Below are positions 1 through 41,714 of a stretch of DNA of 41,714 bases, piece by piece. The stretch lies in NCBI RefSeq assembly GCF_055900595.2, contig NZ_JBVWEU010000004.1. One strand, 5' to 3'. The notes below the pieces were generated by a model. That model saw only the letters and a program-made list of their open reading frames with translations. It searched no databases and was not told the origin of the DNA. This DNA comes from a plasmid. The first letter of the stretch is position 1. Each line of letters starts with the position of its first letter. Made by a program: the position numbers and the translations under genes.

Positions 1-867
1 ATGGGAAAGAGGTCAAGTTCAGTTCTCAATTATCCACTTGTGGATAAAGTGCAGATTTTTCCGGTGGATAAGTATCGCGATAGCTTGCAATTTCTGTTTT
101 CACTGTCATTATGGGTGGGTAAAAATTTACCCATAGGCATTGAAATGGATACTCAAGCACTCTTGCCAGCTACTAAAACGTTTAAAAAACGCGCCAGTAT
201 AAAGCAATCTAACGAATTGACCGAAGCTGCATATTACCTGCCTCTTCAGGCAAAACGTGTGCTGTGGTTATGCCTCATGCAGGCCTATTTTAATGACAGC
301 CAGGAAGATGACTCTGACGTATTGCCGCTCTTCAAAATCAGCGTTTCCGATTACGTCAAATACTTCAATGTCGCTACGTCTGTCGCCAGTCGTGATGTGA
401 AGGCTGGGGTAAATGCTCTGGGCGAATCAACGGTTACCTTTTATCCAAAAGAAGGTGAGTTTGAAGAAGTTAAACGTCCGTGGCTGGCTGAAGCAGGAAT
501 GAAGCGAGGCCGGGGTTCCTGGCAGATTGAATTTAACTACAAGGTCATGCCATTCCTGGTCGGCTTAACCTCCCAGTTCACTACCTATTCTCTCTATGAC
601 TGTGGCCAGCTTAATAGTGTTCGTGTCATCCGGCTTTATGAAAGCCTGTGTCAGTTCCGGAGCACTGGTGTCTGGATCACCACACATGACTGGTTATGTG
701 AAAGGTTTATGCTCCCTGCCTCGCAGAAAAACAATATTGCTGAAATGAAGCGTACCTTCCTGGAACCTGCTCTGAAGAAAATTAATGAGAAGACGCCATT
801 AAAGGTAACATATACCACTGAAGAAGATGGTCGCTTGCTGTTTAATTTTCTTGATAAAAAACAATAG
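1..867 (+). CDS. repA: RepE/RepA-family iteron-binding replication initiator (F RepFIA RepE-like)
   Basis: 288-aa ORF; KKRASIKQSNELTEAAYYL and RLYESLCQFR segments match my recollection of F RepE; followed by an iteron array. The true start may be the internal Met at 145 (240 aa, closer to RepE length), since 1-144 carries DnaA-box-like and iteron-like sequence. Confidence 0.8.
   Translation: MGKRSSSVLNYPLVDKVQIFPVDKYRDSLQFLFSLSLWVGKNLPIGIEMDTQALLPATKTFKKRASIKQSNELTEAAYYLPLQAKRVLWLCLMQAYFNDSQEDDSDVLPLFKISVSDYVKYFNVATSVASRDVKAGVNALGESTVTFYPKEGEFEEVKRPWLAEAGMKRGRGSWQIEFNYKVMPFLVGLTSQFTTYSLYDCGQLNSVRVIRLYESLCQFRSTGVWITTHDWLCERFMLPASQKNNIAEMKRTFLEPALKKINEKTPLKVTYTTEEDGRLLFNFLDKKQ
30..72. promoter_or_regulatory. 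DnaA-box-like palindrome TTATCCAC-TT-GTGGATAA (30-47) plus GTGGATAAG (64-72) in the rep leader; candidate rep operator
   Basis: Seen directly in sequence; an operator overlapping the rep promoter is typical of RepE-type replicons. Confidence 0.4.
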
Positions 868-929
868 TCTGTAATTTTTATTTCCTCCCCCCTTAGTTTG
901 TTGCTGACATATGGGGGGATACTGAACTT

Positions 930-1337
930 GCTGTGTTTCCCATAGTGCTTGCCTAACTTGACCTGTTTCCCACACTCCCGACCGTCCGAGAAGTTGACCT
1001 GTTTCCCATAGTCCGGGCCGTCCGAGAAGCTGACCTGTTTCCCTTAGTCCGGGCCGTCCGCGAAGTTGACCTGTTCCCCACACTCCCGGCCGCCCGCGAA
1101 GTTGACCTGTTTCCCACAGTCCGGGCCGTCTGCAAAGTTGACCTGTTTCCCACAGTCCCGGCCGCCCGCGAAGTTGACCTGTTTCCCATAATCCGGGCCG
1201 TCCGCGAAGTTGACCTGTTCCCCACACTCCCGGCCGCCCGTGAAGTTGACCTGTTTCCCATAGTCCGGGCCGTCCGCGAAGTTGACCTGTTTCCCATAGT
1301 CCGGAGCGTCCATTAAAGTTGACCTGTTTCCCACAGA
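930..1337. repeat. Eleven direct 36-bp iterons (AAGTTGACCTGTTTCCCA core) downstream of rep; incC-like copy-control/incompatibility array
   Basis: Exact 36-bp periodicity (core at 955, 991, 1027 ... 1315), with two alternating unit variants. Confidence 0.85.
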
Positions 1338-1681
1338 GGATGGAAAACTCTTCTTGTGCTGAGCGTAAGAGCTATCTGCCGGAACGGTTCCTCTTCGCTT
1401 CCTCGCCAGTTCGCTCGCTACGCTCGGTTACATGGCTGCGGCGAGCGCTGATACATAAGGCTCAGCATTGCACTGGTCGTAACTAAAATCAGAATCCTTC
1501 TGAATGACTCTCCTGTCTTGCAAGTTGAATACCTTTCTCAAAGCCCTTTTGTATGAGTTGCTGTTGATGGTCAAAAGTGCGTCTGCGTGTTGCTGCAGTG
1601 TGATTTAGTAGCACGCCCGTCGAGCTTCATCCCCCTTCTGTTGAGAGCGAAATCAAAACAATATGATTTTTTTTCTTGCAA

Positions 1682-1728: not shown

Positions 1729-2934
1729 ATGGACAATATTGAGCAGTTACGGAAAGTCGCTACACGTGCAGGTAAGCTTCTGACATCTTTGAGCGAAAGT
1801 ATCCGACAGCAAAAAGAGGAATTGAAGCTTACCGAGTTCTATCAGGAATACAGCAAAGCCGCTCTGTATAAGCTGCCTAAGCTCAGTAAAGGCAGTGTTG
1901 AGTATGCTGTGTCCGAAATGGAAGCCGGTGGCTACATTTTTAAAAAGAAACCTTCTGGTAATACGATGAAATACGCGATGACGATTCAGAATGTCATCGA
2001 TCTGTATAACCATCGTAAAGTACCGAAGTACAGGGATCGCTTCGATAAAGCCTTTACGATTTTTGTATGTAATCTTAAAGGTGGTGGTTCCAAGACAGTT
2101 TCTACCGCTTCATTATCACATGCTTTTCGAGCTCATCCTCAGCTTCTGTTCGAAGACCTGCGTATTCTGGCCATCGATTTCGATCCGCAGGCATCTCTGA
2201 CAATGTTCCTGAGCCATGAGAATTCAGTGGGCTTGGTTGAAAATACGGCTGCTCAGGCCATGCTCCAGAACGTGTCTCGTGAAGAATTACTTTCCGATTT
2301 TATAGTACCGTCTATTATCCCTGGTGTTGATGTAATCCCCGCTTCCATTGACGATGCATTCCTTGCTGAAGGCTGGAAGGGATTGTGTGAAGAACATCTG
2401 CCAGGGAAAAATATTCATGCGGTGCTTAAAGAGAACATTATCGACAAGCTCCAGCATGACTACGACTTTATTTTCCTTGATAGTGGTCCTCACCTTGATG
2501 CGTTCCTGAAAAACTGCATTGGGGCGGCAGACCTGATGTTGACCCCTCTTCCACCGGCGACGGTTGATTTTCATTCTTCCCTGAAGTTTGTGGCCAGCCT
2601 CCCTGCCCTCATAGATTCCATCGAAATGGATGGGCACACCTGCAATCTCATCGGTAATGTCGGCTTCATGTCCAAGATCCTGAACAAGTCTGATCACAAA
2701 ATTTGCCATAGTCAGGCCAAAGAGGTTTTCGGTGCCGATATGCTAGACATGGTTCTGCCAAGACTGGATGGTTTCGAACGTTGTGGGGAGACTTTTGACA
2801 CAGTTATTTCAGCAAATCCAGCAACCTATGATGGAAGTACAGAGGCACTAAAAAGCGCAAAATCAGCAGCGGAAGACTTTGCGAAGGCAGTCTTTGATCG
2901 CATCGAGTTCATTCGTACTAACGGAGGTATGTGA
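1729..2934 (+). CDS. parA: Type Ia partition ATPase ParA (P1 ParA / F SopA family)
   Basis: 401 aa; deviant Walker A KGGGSKT; long N-terminal extension typical of type Ia ParA; overlaps parB by 4 bp. Confidence 0.9.
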   Translation: MDNIEQLRKVATRAGKLLTSLSESIRQQKEELKLTEFYQEYSKAALYKLPKLSKGSVEYAVSEMEAGGYIFKKKPSGNTMKYAMTIQNVIDLYNHRKVPKYRDRFDKAFTIFVCNLKGGGSKTVSTASLSHAFRAHPQLLFEDLRILAIDFDPQASLTMFLSHENSVGLVENTAAQAMLQNVSREELLSDFIVPSIIPGVDVIPASIDDAFLAEGWKGLCEEHLPGKNIHAVLKENIIDKLQHDYDFIFLDSGPHLDAFLKNCIGAADLMLTPLPPATVDFHSSLKFVASLPALIDSIEMDGHTCNLIGNVGFMSKILNKSDHKICHSQAKEVFGADMLDMVLPRLDGFERCGETFDTVISANPATYDGSTEALKSAKSAAEDFAKAVFDRIEFIRTNGGM

Positions 2935-3908
2935 TGTCGAATGAGAAAAGAAAAACCATCGGCAGACAGTTAAATACCCAGGCGTCAATTGCGGAAATGA
3001 CGGACACCGGTAGAAGCCAGGTATTTACCTTAAAAACCGGCAGGAAGGTAACGTTCAGGTTTGTTCGGGTGCCTGCATCTGAAGTTGAAAGTAAGACCTT
3101 CGTAAACCAGGAAAACAACGGAAGAGATCAACTTGCACTGACCAGGGAATCCCTGAAATCCATTATCCAGACGATTAAGTTTCAGCAGTTCTTTCCCTGT
3201 ATTGGTATTAAGCAAAGTGAAAGGATTGAGATACTGGATGGTTCAAGACGGCGAGCCTCAGCAATTTTTGTCCGTACAGGCCTTGATGTAATGGTTACCG
3301 AAGAGCATTTATCAGCTGATGAAGCTCGCCAACTGGCTAAAGATATCCAGACAGCTAAAGAACATAATCTTCGGGAGATTGGCCTGAGATTGATCGCTCT
3401 TAAAGAGTCCGGATTTAATCAAAAGGAAATTGCTGAACTGGAGGGGTTATCTCAAGCTAAAGTTACCAGGGCGCTGCAGGCGGCGGCCGTACCGCAAGAC
3501 TTGATTTCTCTGTTCCCGGTTCAGTCGGAGCTATCGTTTAGTGACTATAAACTTCTTTTAGAAGTTAATGAAAAACTCAGTGAAAAGGGATTAACGCCTG
3601 AAGAACTCATTCAGTCTGTATCAGCTCAGCTCGATGCAATTTTGAGTGAAGGCGAGCGACCAGAAGACGAACAGAAAGCCAGTATACTGAAGCTGATTTC
3701 TCAGGCATCTCAGGCATTGATAGATCCATCTCCCAAGGAAAAGTCAGTGGTTTCCCCACTCTGGTCTTTTGAAGAAAAGGACAAGTTCGCGCGTAAGCGT
3801 GTGAAAGGGCGTACGCTGACTTATGAGTTTAGCCGTATGTCAAAAGTGATTCAGGATGAACTGGACAAGGCTATCAACGAGGTCCTTGACAGAAATTTGA
3901 GTCAATAA
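2931..3908 (+). CDS. parB: Partition centromere-binding protein ParB
   Basis: 325 aa; GSRR motif (ILDGSRRRAS) characteristic of ParB/SopB; translationally coupled to parA. Confidence 0.85.
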   Translation: MMSNEKRKTIGRQLNTQASIAEMTDTGRSQVFTLKTGRKVTFRFVRVPASEVESKTFVNQENNGRDQLALTRESLKSIIQTIKFQQFFPCIGIKQSERIEILDGSRRRASAIFVRTGLDVMVTEEHLSADEARQLAKDIQTAKEHNLREIGLRLIALKESGFNQKEIAELEGLSQAKVTRALQAAAVPQDLISLFPVQSELSFSDYKLLLEVNEKLSEKGLTPEELIQSVSAQLDAILSEGERPEDEQKASILKLISQASQALIDPSPKEKSVVSPLWSFEEKDKFARKRVKGRTLTYEFSRMSKVIQDELDKAINEVLDRNLSQ

Positions 3909-5739: not shown

Positions 5740-7680
5740 CCGGGAGACCGGTAGAGATCAAGGGGTGAAAGTCCCCGACCATTGAAGGACCAGCAATCCA
5801 CAAGGTCCCCGAGTCATGCGTTGCATACCGCGAGGTATGGGGCGAAGCGTTGACAGGGGTGTTGACAGGCCAGCCATTGAGCCACGAAATGTATATTAAA
5901 TTACCGGGTGCCGACGTTGTACTGTTAACGGAAGGCAACATCATAGGGTGCGATACTGCGAGTGCCACATGGACCCGGCGGGGTCTGAGACCCTGGCATG
6001 TCAATACGATCTCTACGCGGGAACCGGGAGATCTCCCCTCTGACCATCTGCCAGTGTCGGAGACGGCCCGCACCGGGAAGACGAGGAGTCATAGCCGGTG
6101 ATGTACGGAGAGGAGAAGTCGGACTCGCTCATAGTAGCGGCGAAGCAGGCGAACAACCCGAAAGGAGCGGAGTCAGTGGAGCGAAGGAGCGGGGCCAAGG
6201 GGAACGCGGAACAGCCACACATGCGCCGGACACAGAGCCGGGAAAGCATGTCACAGAGGCTGTCACGCGTGCGGGAAGCTGCGAAGCAGCGGAAGAAAGA
6301 ACGGTTTACAGCATTGTTCCACCTGCTGACAGTCGAAGCACTGGAAGCCGCATTCCTCTCCCTGAGCAGGAAAGCGGCCGCCGGAGTGGATGGCATCAGG
6401 TGGATGGACTACGCCGGAAACATGAAGAACAACATAACAGATCTGCACCGGAGGCTACATTAGGGCAGCTACAGGGCGCAGCCCGGCAGGCGTCACTACA
6501 TCCCAAAAGCGGATGGAAAACAACGCCCGCTCGGCATCGCCTCGCTGGAGGACAAGATCGTCCAGTATGCGCTGGTGAAAATCCTGAACGCAGTCTATGA
6601 AAACGACTTTATGGGGTTCTCATACGGGTTCAGACCCGGGCGAAGCCAGCACGATGCACTGGACGCACTGGCCACAGGGCTGGTACGCACTAACGTAAAC
6701 TGGGTACTGGATGCCGACATCAGTCAGTTCTTCGACAGGGTGAGCCACGAATGGCTGATCAGGTTCACAGAGCATCGGATCGGCGACCGGAGCGTAATCA
6801 GGCTCATACGTAAGTGGCTCACAGCCGGGACGTTGGAGGAGGGTCAATGGCGAGCAACGGAGGAAGGCACCCCACAGGGTGCGGTCATCTCACCGCTGCT
6901 GGCAAACATATACCTCCACTACGTCTTCGATCTGTGGGCGCATCAGTGGCGACGTCGCTATGCCACAGGCAATGTGGTAATGGTCAGATACGCCGATGAC
7001 ATCGTCATCGGGTTCGACAAACGATACGATGCCCGGCGCTTCCGTATAGCCATGCAGCGCAGACTGAGGGAGTTCGGACTCACGGTTCACCCGGAGAAAA
7101 CCCGTCTGATGGAGTTCGGCCGCTTCGCTGCCGAAAACCGTGCCATCAGGGGAAAAGGCAAACCAGAAACGTTCAACTTCCTCGGGTTCACGCACATCAG
7201 CGGGAAAGATCGCAACGGCAGGTTCATGCTGATACGAAAGACCCGCCGGGATCGGATGACGGCAACTCTGAAAGCCATCAAAGACGGTCTGCGAAGGCGC
7301 TGGCATTACTCAATCCCCGAACAGGGAAAATGGCTCAGGAGAGTGGTTCAGGGATACCTGAACTATCACTCGGTACCGGGCAACTTCCCCACCATGCAGA
7401 AGTTCAGGACACACGTAACAAACCTCTGGCGCCGGGCGCTCAGGCGCAGGAGCCAGAAGGATGATACGACCTGGACGAAAGCAAACAAACTGGCAGCCGC
7501 ATGGCTACCAAGGGTTCGGGTTCTTCATCCATGGCCTGTGGAGCGGTTCACCGCCAGACACCCGAGGCAGGAGCCCGGTGCGTAAATCGCGCACGCCGGG
7601 ATCTGTGCGGGGGGTATCCGGTAACGGGTATCCCTACCGCGACATATTTAACAGCGTGACGATAATCCAGATCGCCTGCC
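5740..7680 (+). mobile_element. Group II intron remnant (maturase-encoding; 5' RNA domains probably truncated, 3' end abuts IS1)
   Basis: Reverse transcriptase/maturase ORF with structured GC-rich RNA-like sequence on both sides; only about 360 nt lie between the LexA box and the ORF start, less than a typical domain I-III. Confidence 0.6.
6098..7588 (+). pseudogene. Group II intron reverse transcriptase/maturase interrupted by an in-frame TAG at 6464-6466
   Basis: ORFs 6098-6463 and 6575-7585 are in the same frame; translation across the gap reads ...[38 protein letters not shown]..., i.e. one stop codon inside a contiguous RT domain; YADD motif present downstream. Confidence 0.75.
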
Positions 7681-27730: not shown

Positions 27731-27874
27731 GGCTTGTTATGACTGTTTTTTTGTACAGTCTATGCCTCGGGCATCCAAGCAGCAAGCGCGTTACGCCGTG
27801 GGTCGATGTTTGATGTTATGGAGCAGCAACGATGTTACGCAGCAGGGCAGACGCCCTAAAACAAAGTTAGCCAT

Positions 27875-28372
27875 ATGAACTCGGAATCAGTACGCATTTA
27901 TCTCGTTGCTGCGATGGGAGCCAATCGGGTTATTGGCAATGGTCCTAATATCCCCTGGAAAATTCCGGGTGAGCAGAAGATTTTTCGCAGACTCACTGAG
28001 GGAAAAGTCGTTGTCATGGGGCGAAAGACCTTTGAGTCTATCGGCAAGCCTCTACCGAACCGTCACACATTGGTAATCTCACGCCAAGCTAACTACCGCG
28101 CCACTGGCTGCGTAGTTGTTTCAACGCTGTCGCACGCTATCGCTTTGGCATCCGAACTCGGCAATGAACTCTACGTCGCGGGCGGAGCTGAGATATACAC
28201 TCTGGCACTACCTCACGCCCACGGCGTGTTTCTATCTGAGGTACATCAAACCTTCGAGGGTGACGCCTTCTTCCCAATGCTCAACGAAACAGAATTCGAG
28301 CTTGTCTCAACCGAAACCATTCAAGCTGTAATTCCGTACACCCACTCCGTTTATGCGCGTCGAAACGGCTAA
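27875..28372 (+). CDS. dfrA12: Trimethoprim-resistant dihydrofolate reductase, dfrA12-like
   Basis: 165 aa, MNSESVRIYLVAAMGANRVIGNGPNIPWKIPGEQ; first cassette after attI1. Confidence 0.9.
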   Translation: MNSESVRIYLVAAMGANRVIGNGPNIPWKIPGEQKIFRRLTEGKVVVMGRKTFESIGKPLPNRHTLVISRQANYRATGCVVVSTLSHAIALASELGNELYVAGGAEIYTLALPHAHGVFLSEVHQTFEGDAFFPMLNETEFELVSTETIQAVIPYTHSVYARRNG

Positions 28373-39120: not shown

Positions 39121-39864
39121 ATGACTGATATACAGGCCGCAACTGAGAGTATAGTTGCTGCGACATCCCATCCGGTTTCCGTACAGCTGATTAATCAAGG
39201 GGCGGGGATCTGGGGAAACGTGGCAACCGGGCTTATCACTGGCCTGCTTACTGGGGGTATAACACTCACTGGCATCTGGCTGACACATTATTTCACGCTT
39301 AAGCGTGAGAGACAGGCGTCAGAAGATAAAATGAAAAAGGAACTGCATTACATTGCCACCGAGTTGGTATTCATGCTTGAACGGTATGCTGAGGGTTGTT
39401 TCCGGGTTGTGACGGATGACGGCCAGGATGATGATGCCCCCCAGCCTGAGAGAAAAGCTGTCACGAATTACCCTGAACTGAATCTGATCGATGTCTCCGG
39501 TGACTGGCGGACTTTAGAGCCACGTCTTATGTATCGCATCCGTGAACTGCCGGTGCTCCAGGATGAGGCCCACAGGGCAATTGCATATGCCGCCGAATAC
39601 TCCGACCCTCCTTGGCATAAGGACTATTTCAGGGAACGGCAGTATCAGTTCACGCGCTTGGGCATCAACGCTGTCATTCTTGCCGTCCGTCTGCGCAAGG
39701 CAACCGGGATGCCCGAAACACGTCTTACAGGTCATGATGAATGGTCTGCAGTTTCCGTGTTTCGTAAAGTCTGGAGGCGCGAAAGAGCCCTGCGCGCTGC
39801 TGAAGCTACCCGCAACAGGGAGTGGAATCAATTAGTGATACCTGATGGAATGTCAAACCAATGA
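39121..39864 (+). CDS. Hypothetical membrane-anchored protein (247 aa)
   Basis: One predicted transmembrane helix (GNVATGLITGLLTGGITLTGIWLTHYF) followed by a charged domain; stop overlaps the recombinase start (ATGA). Confidence 0.55.
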   Translation: MTDIQAATESIVAATSHPVSVQLINQGAGIWGNVATGLITGLLTGGITLTGIWLTHYFTLKRERQASEDKMKKELHYIATELVFMLERYAEGCFRVVTDDGQDDDAPQPERKAVTNYPELNLIDVSGDWRTLEPRLMYRIRELPVLQDEAHRAIAYAAEYSDPPWHKDYFRERQYQFTRLGINAVILAVRLRKATGMPETRLTGHDEWSAVSVFRKVWRRERALRAAEATRNREWNQLVIPDGMSNQ

Positions 39865-40637
39865 GCGGCCTCTTATCATATTCTCACCCGCAGCAGCCGG
39901 CGCAAATGCCGGTGGCCATTGACTATCCCGCCGCGCTGGCCCTGCGCCAGATGGCGCTCGTTCAAGATGAACTACCGAAATACCTGCTGGCACCGGAAGT
40001 CAGCGCCCTGCTCCATTATGTGCCCGATTTGCACCGCAAGATGCTGCTGGCAACCCTCTGGAACACCGGCGCACGTATCAACGAGGCGCTGGCGCTGACC
40101 CGGGGGGATTTTTCGCTGGTGCCACCGTATCCGTTCGTGCAGCTGGCCACGCTTAAGCAGCGCACCGAAAAAGCGGCCAGGACAGCCGGCCGAGCTCCCG
40201 CCGGTAGCCAGGCTCATCGTCTGGTTCCGCTTTCCGATCACCACTACGTCAGCCAGCTGCAGATGATGGTGGCCACCCTGAAAATTCCGCTGGAAAGACG
40301 CAACAAGCGTACCGGCAGAACAGAGAAAGCCCGCATCTGGGACATCACCGACCGGACAGTACGGACCTGGATTGGCGAAGCGGTTGAAGCGGCCGCCGTC
40401 GACGGGGTGACATTCTCGGTGCCGGTCACCCCGCATACGTTCCGCCACTCCTACGCGATGCATATGCTGTATGCCGGCATACCACTGAAGGTTTTGCAGA
40501 GCCTGATGGGCCACAAATCGATTAGCTCGACGGAAGTCTATACGAAGGTGTTCGCACTTGATGTTGCTGCGCGGCATCGAGTTCAGTTTCAGATGCCCGA
40601 AGCGGATGCGGTAGCCATGCTGAAAGGGAATATTTAA
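39861..40637 (+). CDS. Tyrosine site-specific recombinase (Xer/ResD-like; possible plasmid multimer resolvase)
   Basis: 258 aa; conserved C-terminal catalytic region HTFRHSYAMHML ... LMGHKSISSTEVYTKV (R-H-R-Y family). Confidence 0.8.
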   Translation: MSGLLSYSHPQQPAQMPVAIDYPAALALRQMALVQDELPKYLLAPEVSALLHYVPDLHRKMLLATLWNTGARINEALALTRGDFSLVPPYPFVQLATLKQRTEKAARTAGRAPAGSQAHRLVPLSDHHYVSQLQMMVATLKIPLERRNKRTGRTEKARIWDITDRTVRTWIGEAVEAAAVDGVTFSVPVTPHTFRHSYAMHMLYAGIPLKVLQSLMGHKSISSTEVYTKVFALDVAARHRVQFQMPEADAVAMLKGNI

Positions 40638-40952: not shown

Positions 40953-41510
40953 CTTGTTACCTCCTGTTGACCGGATCCCAAGCATAGATATCTGAATTCA
41001 AATTGCCTAGTGAAATGTCTGGATATGCCGCATTTTTCCCCTTATACAGCGAAGCTGGCCAAAGGCCAGCCCGCTTGGATTTATCGCTTTTGCCAGTAAA
41101 TCAGCATGGCAAGGAACAGGATTGTTGCCCCCTGAGAAGCGGTCAGGAAAGTTTCCAGCAATGACATTATCGTAAAACTCCGCATTATTCAGGTGTGTGA
41201 TTCAGGGGCCTTAGTCCCCCTTTTACAGGACGTAGTGTTCTGTCACGACGGAAGCCAGGGTTAATAAAAACGATTCGAATATGTCTGCAGGGACGATAGA
41301 AATCTTCGTGCGGGTTGTCTCGCTGTAGCCGGCTCTGGAGAGCGACTCGGGGGAGGAGTAGTATCTTCCGGCCACGGATATGATCGAGCCAGCAGTGCTC
41401 GCCGCAGTCGAGCGACAGGGCGAAGCCCCGAGTGAGCGAGGAAGCACCAGGGAACAAAACTTATAAATTCTGCTTACGCTCAATGCCTGAAAAATCACCT
41501 CCCCTCGGGG

Positions 41511-41528
41511 TTATCCACTTATCCACGG
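41511..41528. promoter_or_regulatory. Two tandem DnaA boxes (TTATCCACT, TATCCACGG)
   Basis: Seen directly; followed by an AT-rich tract, as in RepE-type origins. Confidence 0.55.
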
Positions 41529-41590
41529 GCATATTTTTATAAAGTACTTTTTTATTCTTTTTCTTTATTTTACATCTTTTAGGGAGCCTG
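41529..41590. promoter_or_regulatory. AT-rich tract (candidate DNA-unwinding element of the origin)
   Basis: About 60 bp of more than 80 percent A+T immediately after the DnaA boxes. Confidence 0.4.
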
Positions 41591-41626: not shown

Positions 41627-41714
41627 ATGGGCAACTGGTAAACATAATATGGGAAATTAATCACGTATCAGTGGGTTTTGTGTCAACAAGCTATGGGATA
41701 TGCATCAACAAGCT
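41627..41714. repeat. Four 22-bp iteron-like units each starting (A/G)TGGG; a fifth unit would be 1-22 if the sequence is circular
   Basis: ATGGG/GTGGG at 41627, 41649, 41671, 41693, and the window starts ATGGG exactly 22 bp after the last; units 3 and 4 share TCAACAAGCT. Confidence 0.45.

What the first reader, a model, noticed from the sequence alone, without database searches (positions are those of the whole stretch)
1376..1450. Imperfect roughly 65-bp inverted repeats flank the basic replicon (1385-1450 versus 41399-41460)
The reverse complement of 1385-1450 (CAGCGCTCGCCGCAG...GGCGAGGAAGCGAAGAGGAACC) resembles 41399-41460 (CAGTGCTCGCCGCAG...GAGCGAGGAAGCACCAGGGAAC): conserved ends with a divergent centre. 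If circular, these bracket the ori-rep-iteron unit, which suggests the replicon was acquired as a cassette or carries paired single-strand initiation or terminus-like signals.
Basis: seen in the sequence. Interest (0 to 1): 0.4.

Follow-up and report, generated by a model that had tools for sequence, protein, structure and literature searches.

The report
Paired primosome-assembly hairpins flanking IncR replicon
The two "inverted repeats" are two diverged copies, on opposite strands, of a known single-stranded DNA hairpin signal for loading the host replication machinery (as in ColE1 and the F plasmid); they bracket the replication module of this IncR resistance plasmid, so this is an ordinary but so far unannotated feature.

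Summary
The window is a circular IncR plasmid. Two related elements lie 1.66 kb apart across the window junction, at 1395-1448 (consensus on the - strand) and 41395-41447 (+ strand). They bracket DnaA boxes, the AT-rich region, origin iterons, rep and the 36-bp iteron array.

They are not the ends of a mobile cassette. Each arm is a complete member of a widespread ~55-nt family, 5'-GCTCGCCGCAG-N29-30-CGAGGAAGC-3'. The family includes the site just downstream of ori in ColE1-type plasmids, where the PriA-dependent primosome assembly site (n'-pas, ssiA) is reported, and the F-plasmid site upstream of ori2 annotated as ssiA (53/54 identical to arm B).

Across 41 distinct sequences the element covaries as one long imperfect hairpin with a GC-GNA-GC tip and G·A oppositions.

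In ColE1-type plasmids the consensus strand is the one displaced by leading-strand synthesis. In 12 RepE/IncR-type replicons a copy lies 270-470 bp upstream of rep on the rep-sense strand. In IncR both copies therefore point inward.

Function as single-strand initiation or helicase-loading signals is inferred by homology, not shown. This is a new member of a known kind and of modest interest.

The parts
1395..1448 (-). Arm A: hairpin of the ColE1-ssiA/F-ssiA (n'-pas) family, consensus on the - strand, between the iteron array and parA
   Evidence: Exact core pattern at 1397-1446(-). Profile hit 1449-1395(-), E = 5e-14. About 51/54 identical to the F site between incC and sopA. Fits the covarying hairpin.
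1360..1394 (-). Arm A 3' tail (GAAGAGGAACCG) and downstream conserved motif CTTACGCTCA (reverse complement of 1360-1369)
   Evidence: Extended family alignment. Alignment of the two arms. Function unknown.
41395..41447 (+). Arm B: hairpin of the same family, consensus on the + strand, 64 bp upstream of the DnaA boxes; homologue of the F site upstream of ori2 (ssiA position)
   Evidence: Exact core pattern at 41397-41445(+). Profile hit 41394-41447(+), E = 1.2e-10. 53/54 identical to F, against 63-72% in the flanks. F ssiA is described upstream of oriV-2 in PMC4398462.
41448..41482 (+). Arm B 3' tail (CAGGGAAC) and downstream conserved motif CTTACGCTCA (41473-41482)
   Evidence: The same spacing of 29 nt from the hairpin to ACGC as in arm A.
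41511..41527 (+). Two tandem DnaA boxes (TTATCCACT, TTATCCACG) of the vegetative origin
   Evidence: Conserved with F ori2.
41528..41580 (.). AT-rich region of the origin
   Evidence: Read directly from the sequence. Partly alignable with the F ori2 AT-rich region.
41628..41714 (+). Origin-proximal iteron-like repeats (TGGG...TCAA cores), continuing across the junction into window 1-23
   Evidence: Iteron core matches at 41628-41642(+) and 2-16(+). Window 1-23 is 83-90% complementary to the downstream iterons. The intermediate copies were seen by eye only.
1..867 (+). rep (IncR RepB, RepE-like initiator) as annotated in public records; the true start is probably at 111 or 145
   Evidence: About 31% amino-acid identity to F RepE. 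An iteron at 1-23 and a DnaA-box palindrome at 30-47 lie inside the annotated 5' end.
928..1336 (-). Array of about 11-12 36-bp iterons downstream of rep
   Evidence: Tandem repeat of period 36, 10.5 copies. Twelve iteron cores on the - strand.
1729..3908 (+). parA-parB partition genes; parA starts 281 bp outside arm A
39861..40637 (+). resD-type tyrosine recombinase, outside arm B
   Evidence: 80% DNA identity to F resD.

Best explanation
Each arm is a PhiX174-type primosome assembly site (n'-pas, a PriA-dependent single-strand initiation signal), the same element as ColE1/pBR322 ssiA and F ssiA.

Proposed mechanism. When the duplex is unwound, the purine-rich strand folds into a ~55-nt imperfect hairpin. 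The hairpin has a basal stem made from the two conserved cores, internal G·A oppositions and a GC-GNA-GC tip. On SSB-coated DNA this fork-like structure is bound by PriA. PriA then recruits PriB and DnaT, which load DnaB from the DnaB-DnaC complex; DnaG then makes primers.

Geometry in this plasmid. The folding strand is the + strand at arm B (41395-41447) and the - strand at arm A (1395-1448). DnaB loaded at either site would therefore travel 5'->3' inward, across the origin, rep and the iterons, while primers made there would be extended outward.

Likeliest role. Arm B is the origin-associated site, matching the conserved position upstream of RepE/IncR-type rep genes. It would load the lagging-strand helicase for the fork that moves from the origin through rep. 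Arm A lies 1.66 kb downstream on the leading-strand template of that fork. It could prime that fork's leading strand or start a leftward primosome, analogous to the ssiA/ssiB pair of ColE1.

Shown versus inferred. Shown here: family membership, the covarying hairpin, strand polarity and positional conservation. Inferred: PriA dependence in IncR and the division of labour between the arms.
For: Identity of the plasmid and geometry. The window is a circular IncR plasmid and the arms flank ori-rep-iterons.

Family membership. A six-way alignment shows both arms, both F sites, ColE1 and a Rop-carrying small plasmid share GCTCGCCGCAG...CGAGGAAGC with homology throughout. In the window the profile hits only these two places (E = 5e-14 and 1.2e-10), and the exact pattern is absent from all shuffles.

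ColE1 polarity. RNAI lies at L005:645-749(-), so RNAII and the displaced strand are +. The element lies at 1307-1364(+), between the origin and rop. The same polarity and distance (about 560-740 nt from the RNAII start) hold in every further ColE1-like locus where the distance could be read. PMC3167613 states that ColE1 ssiA/n'-pas is exposed by Pol I extension and recruits PriA.

F plasmid. Arm B is 53/54 identical to the F site between resD and ori2. PMC4398462 places ssiA there. The XhoI site lies inside this F hairpin and a BglII site lies 133 bp toward repE. That matches the direction PMC4627060 attributes to Imber et al. 1983.

Structure. Across 41 distinct sequences, 82% of cells are paired against 74% in shuffles (0 of 500 reach it). 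The covariation score is 0.257 against 0.124, and 0.012-0.065 when the partners are slid. Ten pairs carry double changes, for example 38-45 GC35/AU6, 30-52 CG24/UA16 and 11-67 CG25/GC11. The non-Watson-Crick cells are almost all G·A, which are replaced by G-C in a minority, and the loop is GNA in 30 of 41 sequences. This pattern is strand-specific.

Position. A copy lies upstream of rep on the rep-sense strand in IncR, F, L033, L121, L078, L103, L063, L107, L046/L093, L123, L127 and L128.

Mechanism. The PriA-PriB-DnaT-DnaB loading steps at a pas hairpin are described in PMC5778457.
Against: No experiment on IncR exists, and the IncR papers I read do not mention ssi or pas.

Thermodynamic folding of the arms is no better than shuffled sequence (z = -0.6 to -1.6).

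I could not read the original mapping papers (Imber 1983; Nomura 1991), so the exact limits and the active strand of F ssiA rest on secondary sources and on geometry. The XhoI site used as a map landmark cuts inside the hairpin. If the active F fragment began at XhoI, the hairpin would not be the whole signal.

Most related replicons carry only one copy, so the second copy (arm A) may be dispensable.

From my own recollection of the literature, the minimal F ori2 works without these sites and only ColE1-type plasmids strictly need PriA. Any role in IncR is therefore probably accessory.

The PhiX174 n' site itself does not match the profile and shares only short motifs.
Confidence: 0.75

Rival explanations
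1. Only arm B is a working origin-associated initiation signal. Arm A is a passenger that arrived with the par module. It would be a relic of recombination between plasmids organised as <-rep-ori-pas | parA->, and is kept by recency or by linkage rather than by function in this replicon.
For: In L063, L107 and L127 a single pas sits between divergently oriented rep and parA. It lies 155-230 bp upstream of parA and is antisense to it in L063 and L127, but about 2.5 kb away in L107. This is the same geometry arm A has relative to IncR parA (281 bp) and the F copy has relative to sopA (170 bp). L079 has a copy upstream of a sopA homologue without an adjacent rep. Close IncR-Rep relatives L121 and L078 lack a second copy. 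The interior sequence type of the hairpin does not track its position.
Against: Arm A scores higher against the family profile than arm B (52.3 versus 41.4 bits). It keeps the whole hairpin and the downstream CTTACGC motif at the same spacing. It is about 94% identical between IncR and F while the outer flank is 54% identical, which argues for selection. A passenger origin and a present function are not mutually exclusive.
Confidence: 0.2
2. The hairpins serve forks entering the replicon rather than leaving it. Each arm lies on the lagging-strand template of a fork approaching the Rep-iteron nucleoprotein complex from outside. PriA-dependent reloading of DnaB at the arm would restart forks stalled at that barrier, including the single returning fork of a unidirectional replicon.
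For: Both consensus strands point inward, which is the correct strand for lagging-strand loading on inward-moving forks. PriA's cellular role is restart at fork-like structures (PMC5778457). pEC958/F replication from oriV-2 is described as unidirectional.
Against: There is no evidence here that Rep-bound iterons stall forks. Most relatives have one copy, on one side only. The ColE1 homologue works on forks leaving the origin.
Confidence: 0.12
3. The arms are terminal inverted repeats, that is the recombination ends of a mobile or exchangeable replicon cassette.
For: The arms bracket the rep-iteron module. IncR and F share the arms at 92-98% identity while Rep is about 31% identical and the iterons differ. 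L033 (RepE-like) and L121 (IncR-Rep) share 3.5 kb at 91.7% identity, ending about 105 bp beyond the pas. The homology of L121 to IncR begins at the 5' edge of the pas.
Against: Each arm is an independent hairpin element that is found singly in most plasmids and in ColE1-type plasmids with no cassette. No transposase or recombinase acts on them, and no direct repeats are visible outside the arms. The mapped junction lies inside the origin, not at the arm ends, and is what ordinary homologous recombination in a conserved segment would give.
Confidence: 0.04
4. The arms are double-stranded protein-binding sites (Tus/Ter-like terminus, ResD/ParB/Rep operator) or transcription terminators insulating the replicon.
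For: They are GC-rich palindrome-like sequences lying between convergent or neighbouring transcription units.
Against: There is no Ter-like match even with 3 mismatches. No terminator-like stem with a T-run is found at either arm. The G·A-to-G-C substitution pattern and the GNA loops indicate a folded single strand of one polarity, not a duplex site. The same element lies in ColE1 plasmids, which lack ResD, ParB and Rep.
Confidence: 0.03

Closest known systems
ColE1/pBR322 ssiA (n'-pas, factor Y/PriA effector site on the lagging-strand template)
   Same: Same sequence family: both cores, spacing, hairpin and downstream ...CTTACGC motif. Both lie next to a vegetative origin and have a purine-rich folding strand.
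   Different: In ColE1-type plasmids the site lies about 110-170 nt downstream of the origin with its 5'->3' direction pointing away from the origin. In IncR both copies point toward the origin. ColE1 has only one family member, and its second site (ssiB) is not a homologue by profile search. ColE1 replication depends on Pol I and PriA, whereas IncR is an iteron/Rep/DnaA replicon.
F plasmid RepFIA ssiA (primosome assembly site near ori2; Imber, Low & Ray 1983) and the second F copy between incC and sopA
   Same: Orthologous arrangement: resD - pas(+) - DnaA boxes - AT-rich - iterons - rep - iterons - pas(-) - par. Arm B is 53/54 identical and arm A about 51/54 identical to the F copies.
   Different: Rep proteins are only about 31% identical, and the iterons and partition genes are unrelated at the DNA level. 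The IncR sites are not annotated or discussed in the IncR literature I read. I could not establish whether the second F copy has been described.
PhiX174 n' (PriA) recognition site in the F-G intergenic region
   Same: A hairpin-forming single-stranded signal. It shares short motifs with the arms: GAAGCGG, GCGAAGC and TTCTGCTTA.
   Different: It is not a member of the sequence family (no profile hit at E <= 10). It serves complementary-strand synthesis of a single-stranded phage rather than a theta plasmid.
G4-type / R1 G-site ssi (primase-only priming of the leading strand downstream of oriR)
   Same: An accessory single-strand initiation signal a few hundred bp from an initiator-dependent plasmid origin, on the template strand whose 5'->3' direction points toward the origin. 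This comparison rests on my knowledge of Masai and Arai's work, not on a test here.
   Different: Different sequence and structure class. G-sites are recognised directly by DnaG without PriA. This was not tested here.
RSF1010 ssiA/ssiB
   Same: A pair of related initiation signals on opposite strands associated with an iteron origin (PMC8567376 abstract).
   Different: Those are adjacent 40-nt repeats inside oriV, read by the plasmid's own RepB' primase. The IncR arms are 1.66 kb apart and belong to the host PriA-type family.

Membership tests
PhiX174-type primosome assembly site (n'-pas; ColE1/pBR322 ssiA, F ssiA) | Sequence homology to an experimentally defined plasmid pas | tested here: met
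   Profile hits at E = 5e-14 and 1.2e-10. Alignment with the ColE1 site at the reported ssiA position. 53/54 identity to the F site at the ssiA position.
PhiX174-type primosome assembly site (n'-pas; ColE1/pBR322 ssiA, F ssiA) | The single strand folds into a hairpin (fork-like) structure | tested here: met
   Covariation in 41 sequences: 10 pairs with double changes, score 0.257 against 0.124 shuffled and at most 0.065 slid. G·A oppositions are replaced by G-C in a minority, and the loops are GNA. Energy alone is not significant.
PhiX174-type primosome assembly site (n'-pas; ColE1/pBR322 ssiA, F ssiA) | Fixed strand polarity relative to a replication origin | tested here: met
   The element lies on the RNAII-sense strand in every ColE1-like locus examined. 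It lies on the rep-sense strand upstream of rep in 12 RepE/IncR-type replicons. Which strand is biochemically active is inferred.
PhiX174-type primosome assembly site (n'-pas; ColE1/pBR322 ssiA, F ssiA) | Stimulates PriA (n') ATPase and directs rifampicin-resistant, PriA/PriB/DnaT/DnaB/DnaC/DnaG-dependent complementary-strand synthesis | not testable with these tools
   Needs the M13 (origin-deleted) ssi assay or purified proteins.
RSF1010-type ssiA/ssiB | Two adjacent ~40-nt inverted signals inside oriV read by a plasmid-encoded primase | tested here: not met
   The arms are 1.66 kb apart and belong to the ColE1/F family. The presence of a plasmid primase was not examined.
Tus/Ter replication terminus | Match to the Ter consensus AGNATGTTGTAACTAA | tested here: not met
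   No match in the window with up to 3 mismatches.
Terminal inverted repeats of a transposable cassette | Repeats occur only as pairs at element ends, with flanking target duplication and a cognate transposase | tested here: not met
   Single copies occur in most related plasmids and in ColE1-type plasmids. No direct repeat is visible outside the arms.
Intrinsic transcription terminator | GC-rich stem-loop followed by a T-run | tested here: not met
   No terminator-like site at either arm.

The most novel reading that the evidence does not exclude
The inward-facing pair marks the borders of an exchangeable 'specificity module' (origin iterons, rep, control iterons). On this reading the host-factor sites (pas hairpin plus DnaA boxes on one side, pas on the other) are kept nearly identical across IncR, IncFIA and related replicons. 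They act as homologous-recombination linkers, possibly stimulated by PriA loading or hairpin extrusion, through which RepE-family plasmids swap initiator and iteron cassettes and so change incompatibility group.
Probability: 0.15. Interest if true: 0.55.

Novelty: new member of a known kind. Interest (0 to 1): 0.3.

Why it matters
IncR plasmids are common carriers of resistance genes in Klebsiella and E. coli, yet their origin anatomy is annotated only as repB plus iterons.

Recognising two PriA-type initiation hairpins, and correcting the likely rep start, gives a more complete map of the minimal replicon. It predicts a host dependency on the PriA-PriB-DnaT pathway that could affect host range, copy number or plasmid-curing strategies.

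The comparative alignment also provides a structure for the plasmid pas family: basal stem, G·A oppositions and a GNA tip. It yields a simple rule for where such sites sit in RepE-family replicons, which could be used to annotate thousands of plasmids.

None of this overturns current understanding.

Tried and rejected
It is clearly above shuffles of the two segments. It is only borderline against the best chance match in a window-sized random sequence, so it is not decisive alone.

Thermodynamic folding of each arm and of the ColE1 and F homologues, on both strands, with DNA parameters. No z-score is beyond -1.6 and the two strands do not differ. The parameters probably undervalue G·A pairs and GNA loops, so I relied on covariation instead.

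Ter-site search and promoter/terminator scans. Nothing was found at the arms.

Rfam. No family covers the arms, as expected for a DNA signal, but the search was useful for orienting ColE1-type replicons through RNAI.

PhiX174 n' site. It shares only short motifs and does not match the profile, so I do not claim sequence-family membership with the phage site.

Literature. Imber et al. 1983 (PMC390007) and Nomura et al. 1991 are not held. Ten full-text searches found no description of pas or ssi in IncR plasmids and only secondary statements on F ssiA.

Wrap-around distances for a few small contigs (L070, L071, L086) were ambiguous, because the contigs may not be closed circles. I excluded them from the polarity count.

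About half of the genome contigs pattern hits (53) were chance matches in GC-rich genomes with unrelated interiors. I discarded them.

Full report
**What the window is.** The first 1750 and last 1115 bases are 100% identical to several plasmid records. One is E. coli pCFSAN061769_02 (NZ_CP042971.1), which is typed IncR and in which window 41714 runs directly into window 1. The window is therefore a circular IncR plasmid.

The layout around the junction, in order:
- resD-type recombinase, 39861-40637 (+)
- arm B
- two DnaA boxes, 41511-41527
- an AT-rich stretch
- iteron-like repeats, 41628 through window 23
- rep, annotated 1-867
- about 11-12 36-bp iterons, 928-1336
- arm A
- parA and parB, from 1729

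.

**Checking the observation.** The only discrepancy is that the second arm starts at 41393 rather than 41399.

The local alignment of the two segments scores 30, against 14.8 +/- 2.4 for shuffles. That score is only about two standard deviations above the best chance match expected somewhere in a random 41.7-kb sequence (25.9 +/- 1.9, maximum 30). Pairwise similarity alone would therefore have left the matter open.

The similarity also extends further than reported, to about 88-90 nt. It includes a shared CTTACGCTCA motif 29 nt beyond each core (1360-1369 on the opposite strand; 41473-41482).

**What the arms are.** Database searches with each arm returned thousands of plasmids.
- Arm A matches F-type plasmids just upstream of sopA (92%). 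Its central 60 nt also match small Rop-encoding ColE1-like plasmids (83-87%).
- Arm B matches F-type plasmids at 94.6%.

In the F plasmid itself the homologues lie between resD and ori2/repE (+ strand) and between incC and sopA (- strand). In ColE1 a single site at 1307-1364 matches both arms.

A six-way alignment shows one element, 5'-(C/G)(C/T)GCTCGCCGCAG - 29-30 nt - CGAGGAAGC(G/A)(G/C)-3'. This pattern occurs twice in the window and never in 100 shuffles.

A scan of one genome per bacterial species retrieved 120 loci. Of these, 54 carried distinct sequences that clearly belong to the family. They are almost all from Enterobacterales plasmids, plus cloning-vector contamination in unrelated assemblies. 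A profile built from 41 of them hits only the two arms in the window, at E = 5e-14 and 1.2e-10.

**Structure.** The family alignment (A1) covaries as one long imperfect hairpin.
- With the full 18-pair structure, 82% of cells form standard pairs, against 74% in column shuffles (0 of 500 reach the observed value).
- The covariation score is 0.257, against 0.124 shuffled and 0.012-0.065 when the partners are slid by 1-3 columns.
- Ten pairs show compensatory double changes.

Examples of double changes are 38-45 (GC 35, AU 6), 29-53 (AU 23, GC 11, GU 7) and 30-52 (CG 24, UA 16). Two basal pairs lie outside the fixed search pattern and also covary: 11-67 (CG 25, GC 11) and 12-66 (CG 28, UA 6, UG 5).

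The cells that are not standard pairs are almost all G·A or A·G. In a minority of sequences they are replaced by G-C (36-47: GA 34, GC 7; 37-46: AG 34, GC 6). The loop is GNA in 30 of 41 sequences, giving a GC-GNA-GC tip (GCGTAGC in arm A, GCGAAGC in arm B). G·A oppositions become C·T on the complementary strand, so this pattern indicates that one specific strand is the folding strand.

Nearest-neighbour energies do not distinguish the arms from shuffles or one strand from the other. I therefore rest the structure on covariation.

**Link to a known function.** In ColE1, RNAI lies at 645-749 on the - strand. RNAII and leading-strand synthesis therefore run rightward, and the displaced strand is +. 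The element lies on that strand, just beyond the expected origin and before rop.

The same polarity and distance (about 560-740 nt from the RNAII start) hold in every further ColE1-like locus where they could be read. This is where ColE1/pBR322 ssiA, the PriA-dependent primosome assembly site for lagging-strand synthesis, is described (PMC3167613).

My recollection of pBR322 coordinates (about 2355-2411) agrees with this, but it is memory and not a test.

For F, PMC4398462 places ssiA upstream of oriV-2. PMC4627060, citing Imber et al. 1983, gives the direction of fork movement as from the XhoI site in oriS toward a BglII site 130 bp downstream. In F, the XhoI site lies inside the arm-B-type hairpin and the BglII site lies 133 bp toward repE. 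This fits both the location and the polarity I infer.

Arm B is 53/54 identical to that F site while its flanks are 63-72% identical. Arm A is about 51/54 identical to the other F copy, with an outer flank at 54%. Meanwhile the two Rep proteins share about 31% identity, and the iterons and partition genes are unrelated at the DNA level.

The mechanism by which a pas hairpin recruits PriA, PriB and DnaT to load DnaB on SSB-coated DNA is established knowledge (PMC5778457).

**Position and polarity in iteron replicons.** In twelve replicons with RepE/IncR-type initiators, one family member lies roughly 270-470 bp upstream of rep on the rep-sense strand. The replicons are IncR, F, L033, L121, L078, L103, L063, L107, L046/L093, L123, L127 and the IncFIB replicon L128. 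Their Rep proteins are 25-95% identical to IncR Rep.

Arm B obeys this rule. Relative to the origin, this polarity is the opposite of ColE1: the 5'->3' direction of the folding strand points toward the origin.

A second copy on the opposite strand next to the partition operon was seen only in IncR, in F (and F-derived vectors) and, without an adjacent rep, in L079. In L063, L107 and L127 a single copy sits between divergent rep and parA. In L063 and L127 it lies 155-230 bp from parA and has the same geometry relative to parA that arm A has in IncR; in L107 parA is about 2.5 kb away. The pairing is therefore not a general feature of the family.

**How it most likely works.** After Rep/DnaA opening and limited unwinding, the + strand at arm B folds and PriA assembles a primosome. 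DnaB then moves 5'->3' through the origin toward rep, as the lagging-strand helicase of the rightward fork. This is the direction reported for mini-F.

Arm A lies on the leading-strand template of that fork. It could supply a leading-strand primer or launch a leftward primosome. The logic parallels the ssiA/ssiB pair of ColE1, although in IncR both sites are ssiA-type.

These roles are inferred. The shown steps are family membership, the hairpin, the polarity and the positional conservation. Alternative roles cannot be excluded: restart of forks entering the Rep-iteron complex, or arm A as a passenger of the par module.

**The cassette idea.** The arms are not terminal repeats of a mobile unit. 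However, the pas/DnaA-box segment is a conserved island shared by replicons with different specificity modules.
- L033 (RepE-like) and L121 (IncR-Rep) share 3.5 kb at 91.7% identity, ending about 105 bp beyond the pas.
- The homology of L121 to the IncR reference begins at the 5' edge of the pas.

This looks like ordinary homologous recombination within a conserved host-factor site. Whether such sites are preferred junctions is the most novel reading left open.

**Verdict.** The 'single-strand initiation signals' reading is supported by homology, structure and polarity. The terminus reading is rejected, and the cassette reading is rejected in its literal form.

The element is a new, unannotated member of a well-known kind. 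The IncR papers I read describe only repB, iterons, parAB, resD and similar genes. Interest is modest.

Noticed in passing
window 1-150: The annotated rep start (window 1) lies inside an origin iteron (1-23, inverted relative to the downstream array) and is followed by a DnaA-box palindrome, TTATCCACTTGTGGATAA (30-47). RepE aligns only from about residue 59. The true start codon is probably the ATG at 111 or 145.
   Followed up: partly
window 1360-1369 and 41473-41482; family alignment: A second conserved motif, (C)TTACGC, lies 29 nt 3' of the hairpin in both arms and in most family members (ColE1: TCTCCTTACGC). The PhiX174 F-G intergenic region has TTTTCTGCTTAGG after its GCGAAGC/GAAGCGG motifs. 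Its function is unknown; it may be a primer-start or protein-contact site.
   Followed up: partly
L033:1793-5273 versus L121:1-3473: A Pantoea plasmid with a RepE-like initiator and an Enterobacter plasmid with an IncR-type initiator share 3.5 kb at 91.7% identity. The shared block runs through the pas and DnaA boxes and ends about 105 bp beyond the pas, just before the rep-specific part. This is a recombination junction inside the origin.
   Followed up: partly
L063:3855-3908, L107:5736-5793, L127:2498-2555, L128:2497-2555: In several plasmids, including an IncFIB replicon, a single pas lies upstream of rep on the rep-sense strand. In L063, L107 and L127 it sits between divergently oriented rep and parA (parA is 155-230 bp away in L063 and L127, but about 2.5 kb away in L107); L128 has no parA in the stretch examined. 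This could be the arrangement from which the paired F/IncR layout derives.
   Followed up: partly
Genome-contig loci, e.g. L010, L012, L013, L037, L038, L075, L080, L087: pUC/pBR322-type and mini-F-type pas sequences, in the mini-F cases with 100% identical RepE and SopA, occur on small contigs of Streptomyces, Mycolicibacter, Cutibacterium and Alicyclobacillus assemblies. This looks like cloning-vector (pUC or BAC/fosmid) contamination of public genomes.
   Followed up: no
window 5768-5993 (+) and 27820-27898 (+): Rfam matches to a group II intron (RF02005, 186.6 bits) and to the attI/aminoglycoside-leader element of class 1 integrons (RF02912, 68.5 bits). These are ordinary IncR cargo.
   Followed up: no
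L018/L040 (Rosenbergiella), L063 (Cedecea), L086 (Pantoea): Divergent family members keep both cores, but the interior is replaced by a different, shorter perfect hairpin (for example CTTTGAC...GTCAAAG, TACTCATTC...GAATGAGTA). This suggests that the cores plus any stable hairpin are what matter.
   Followed up: no
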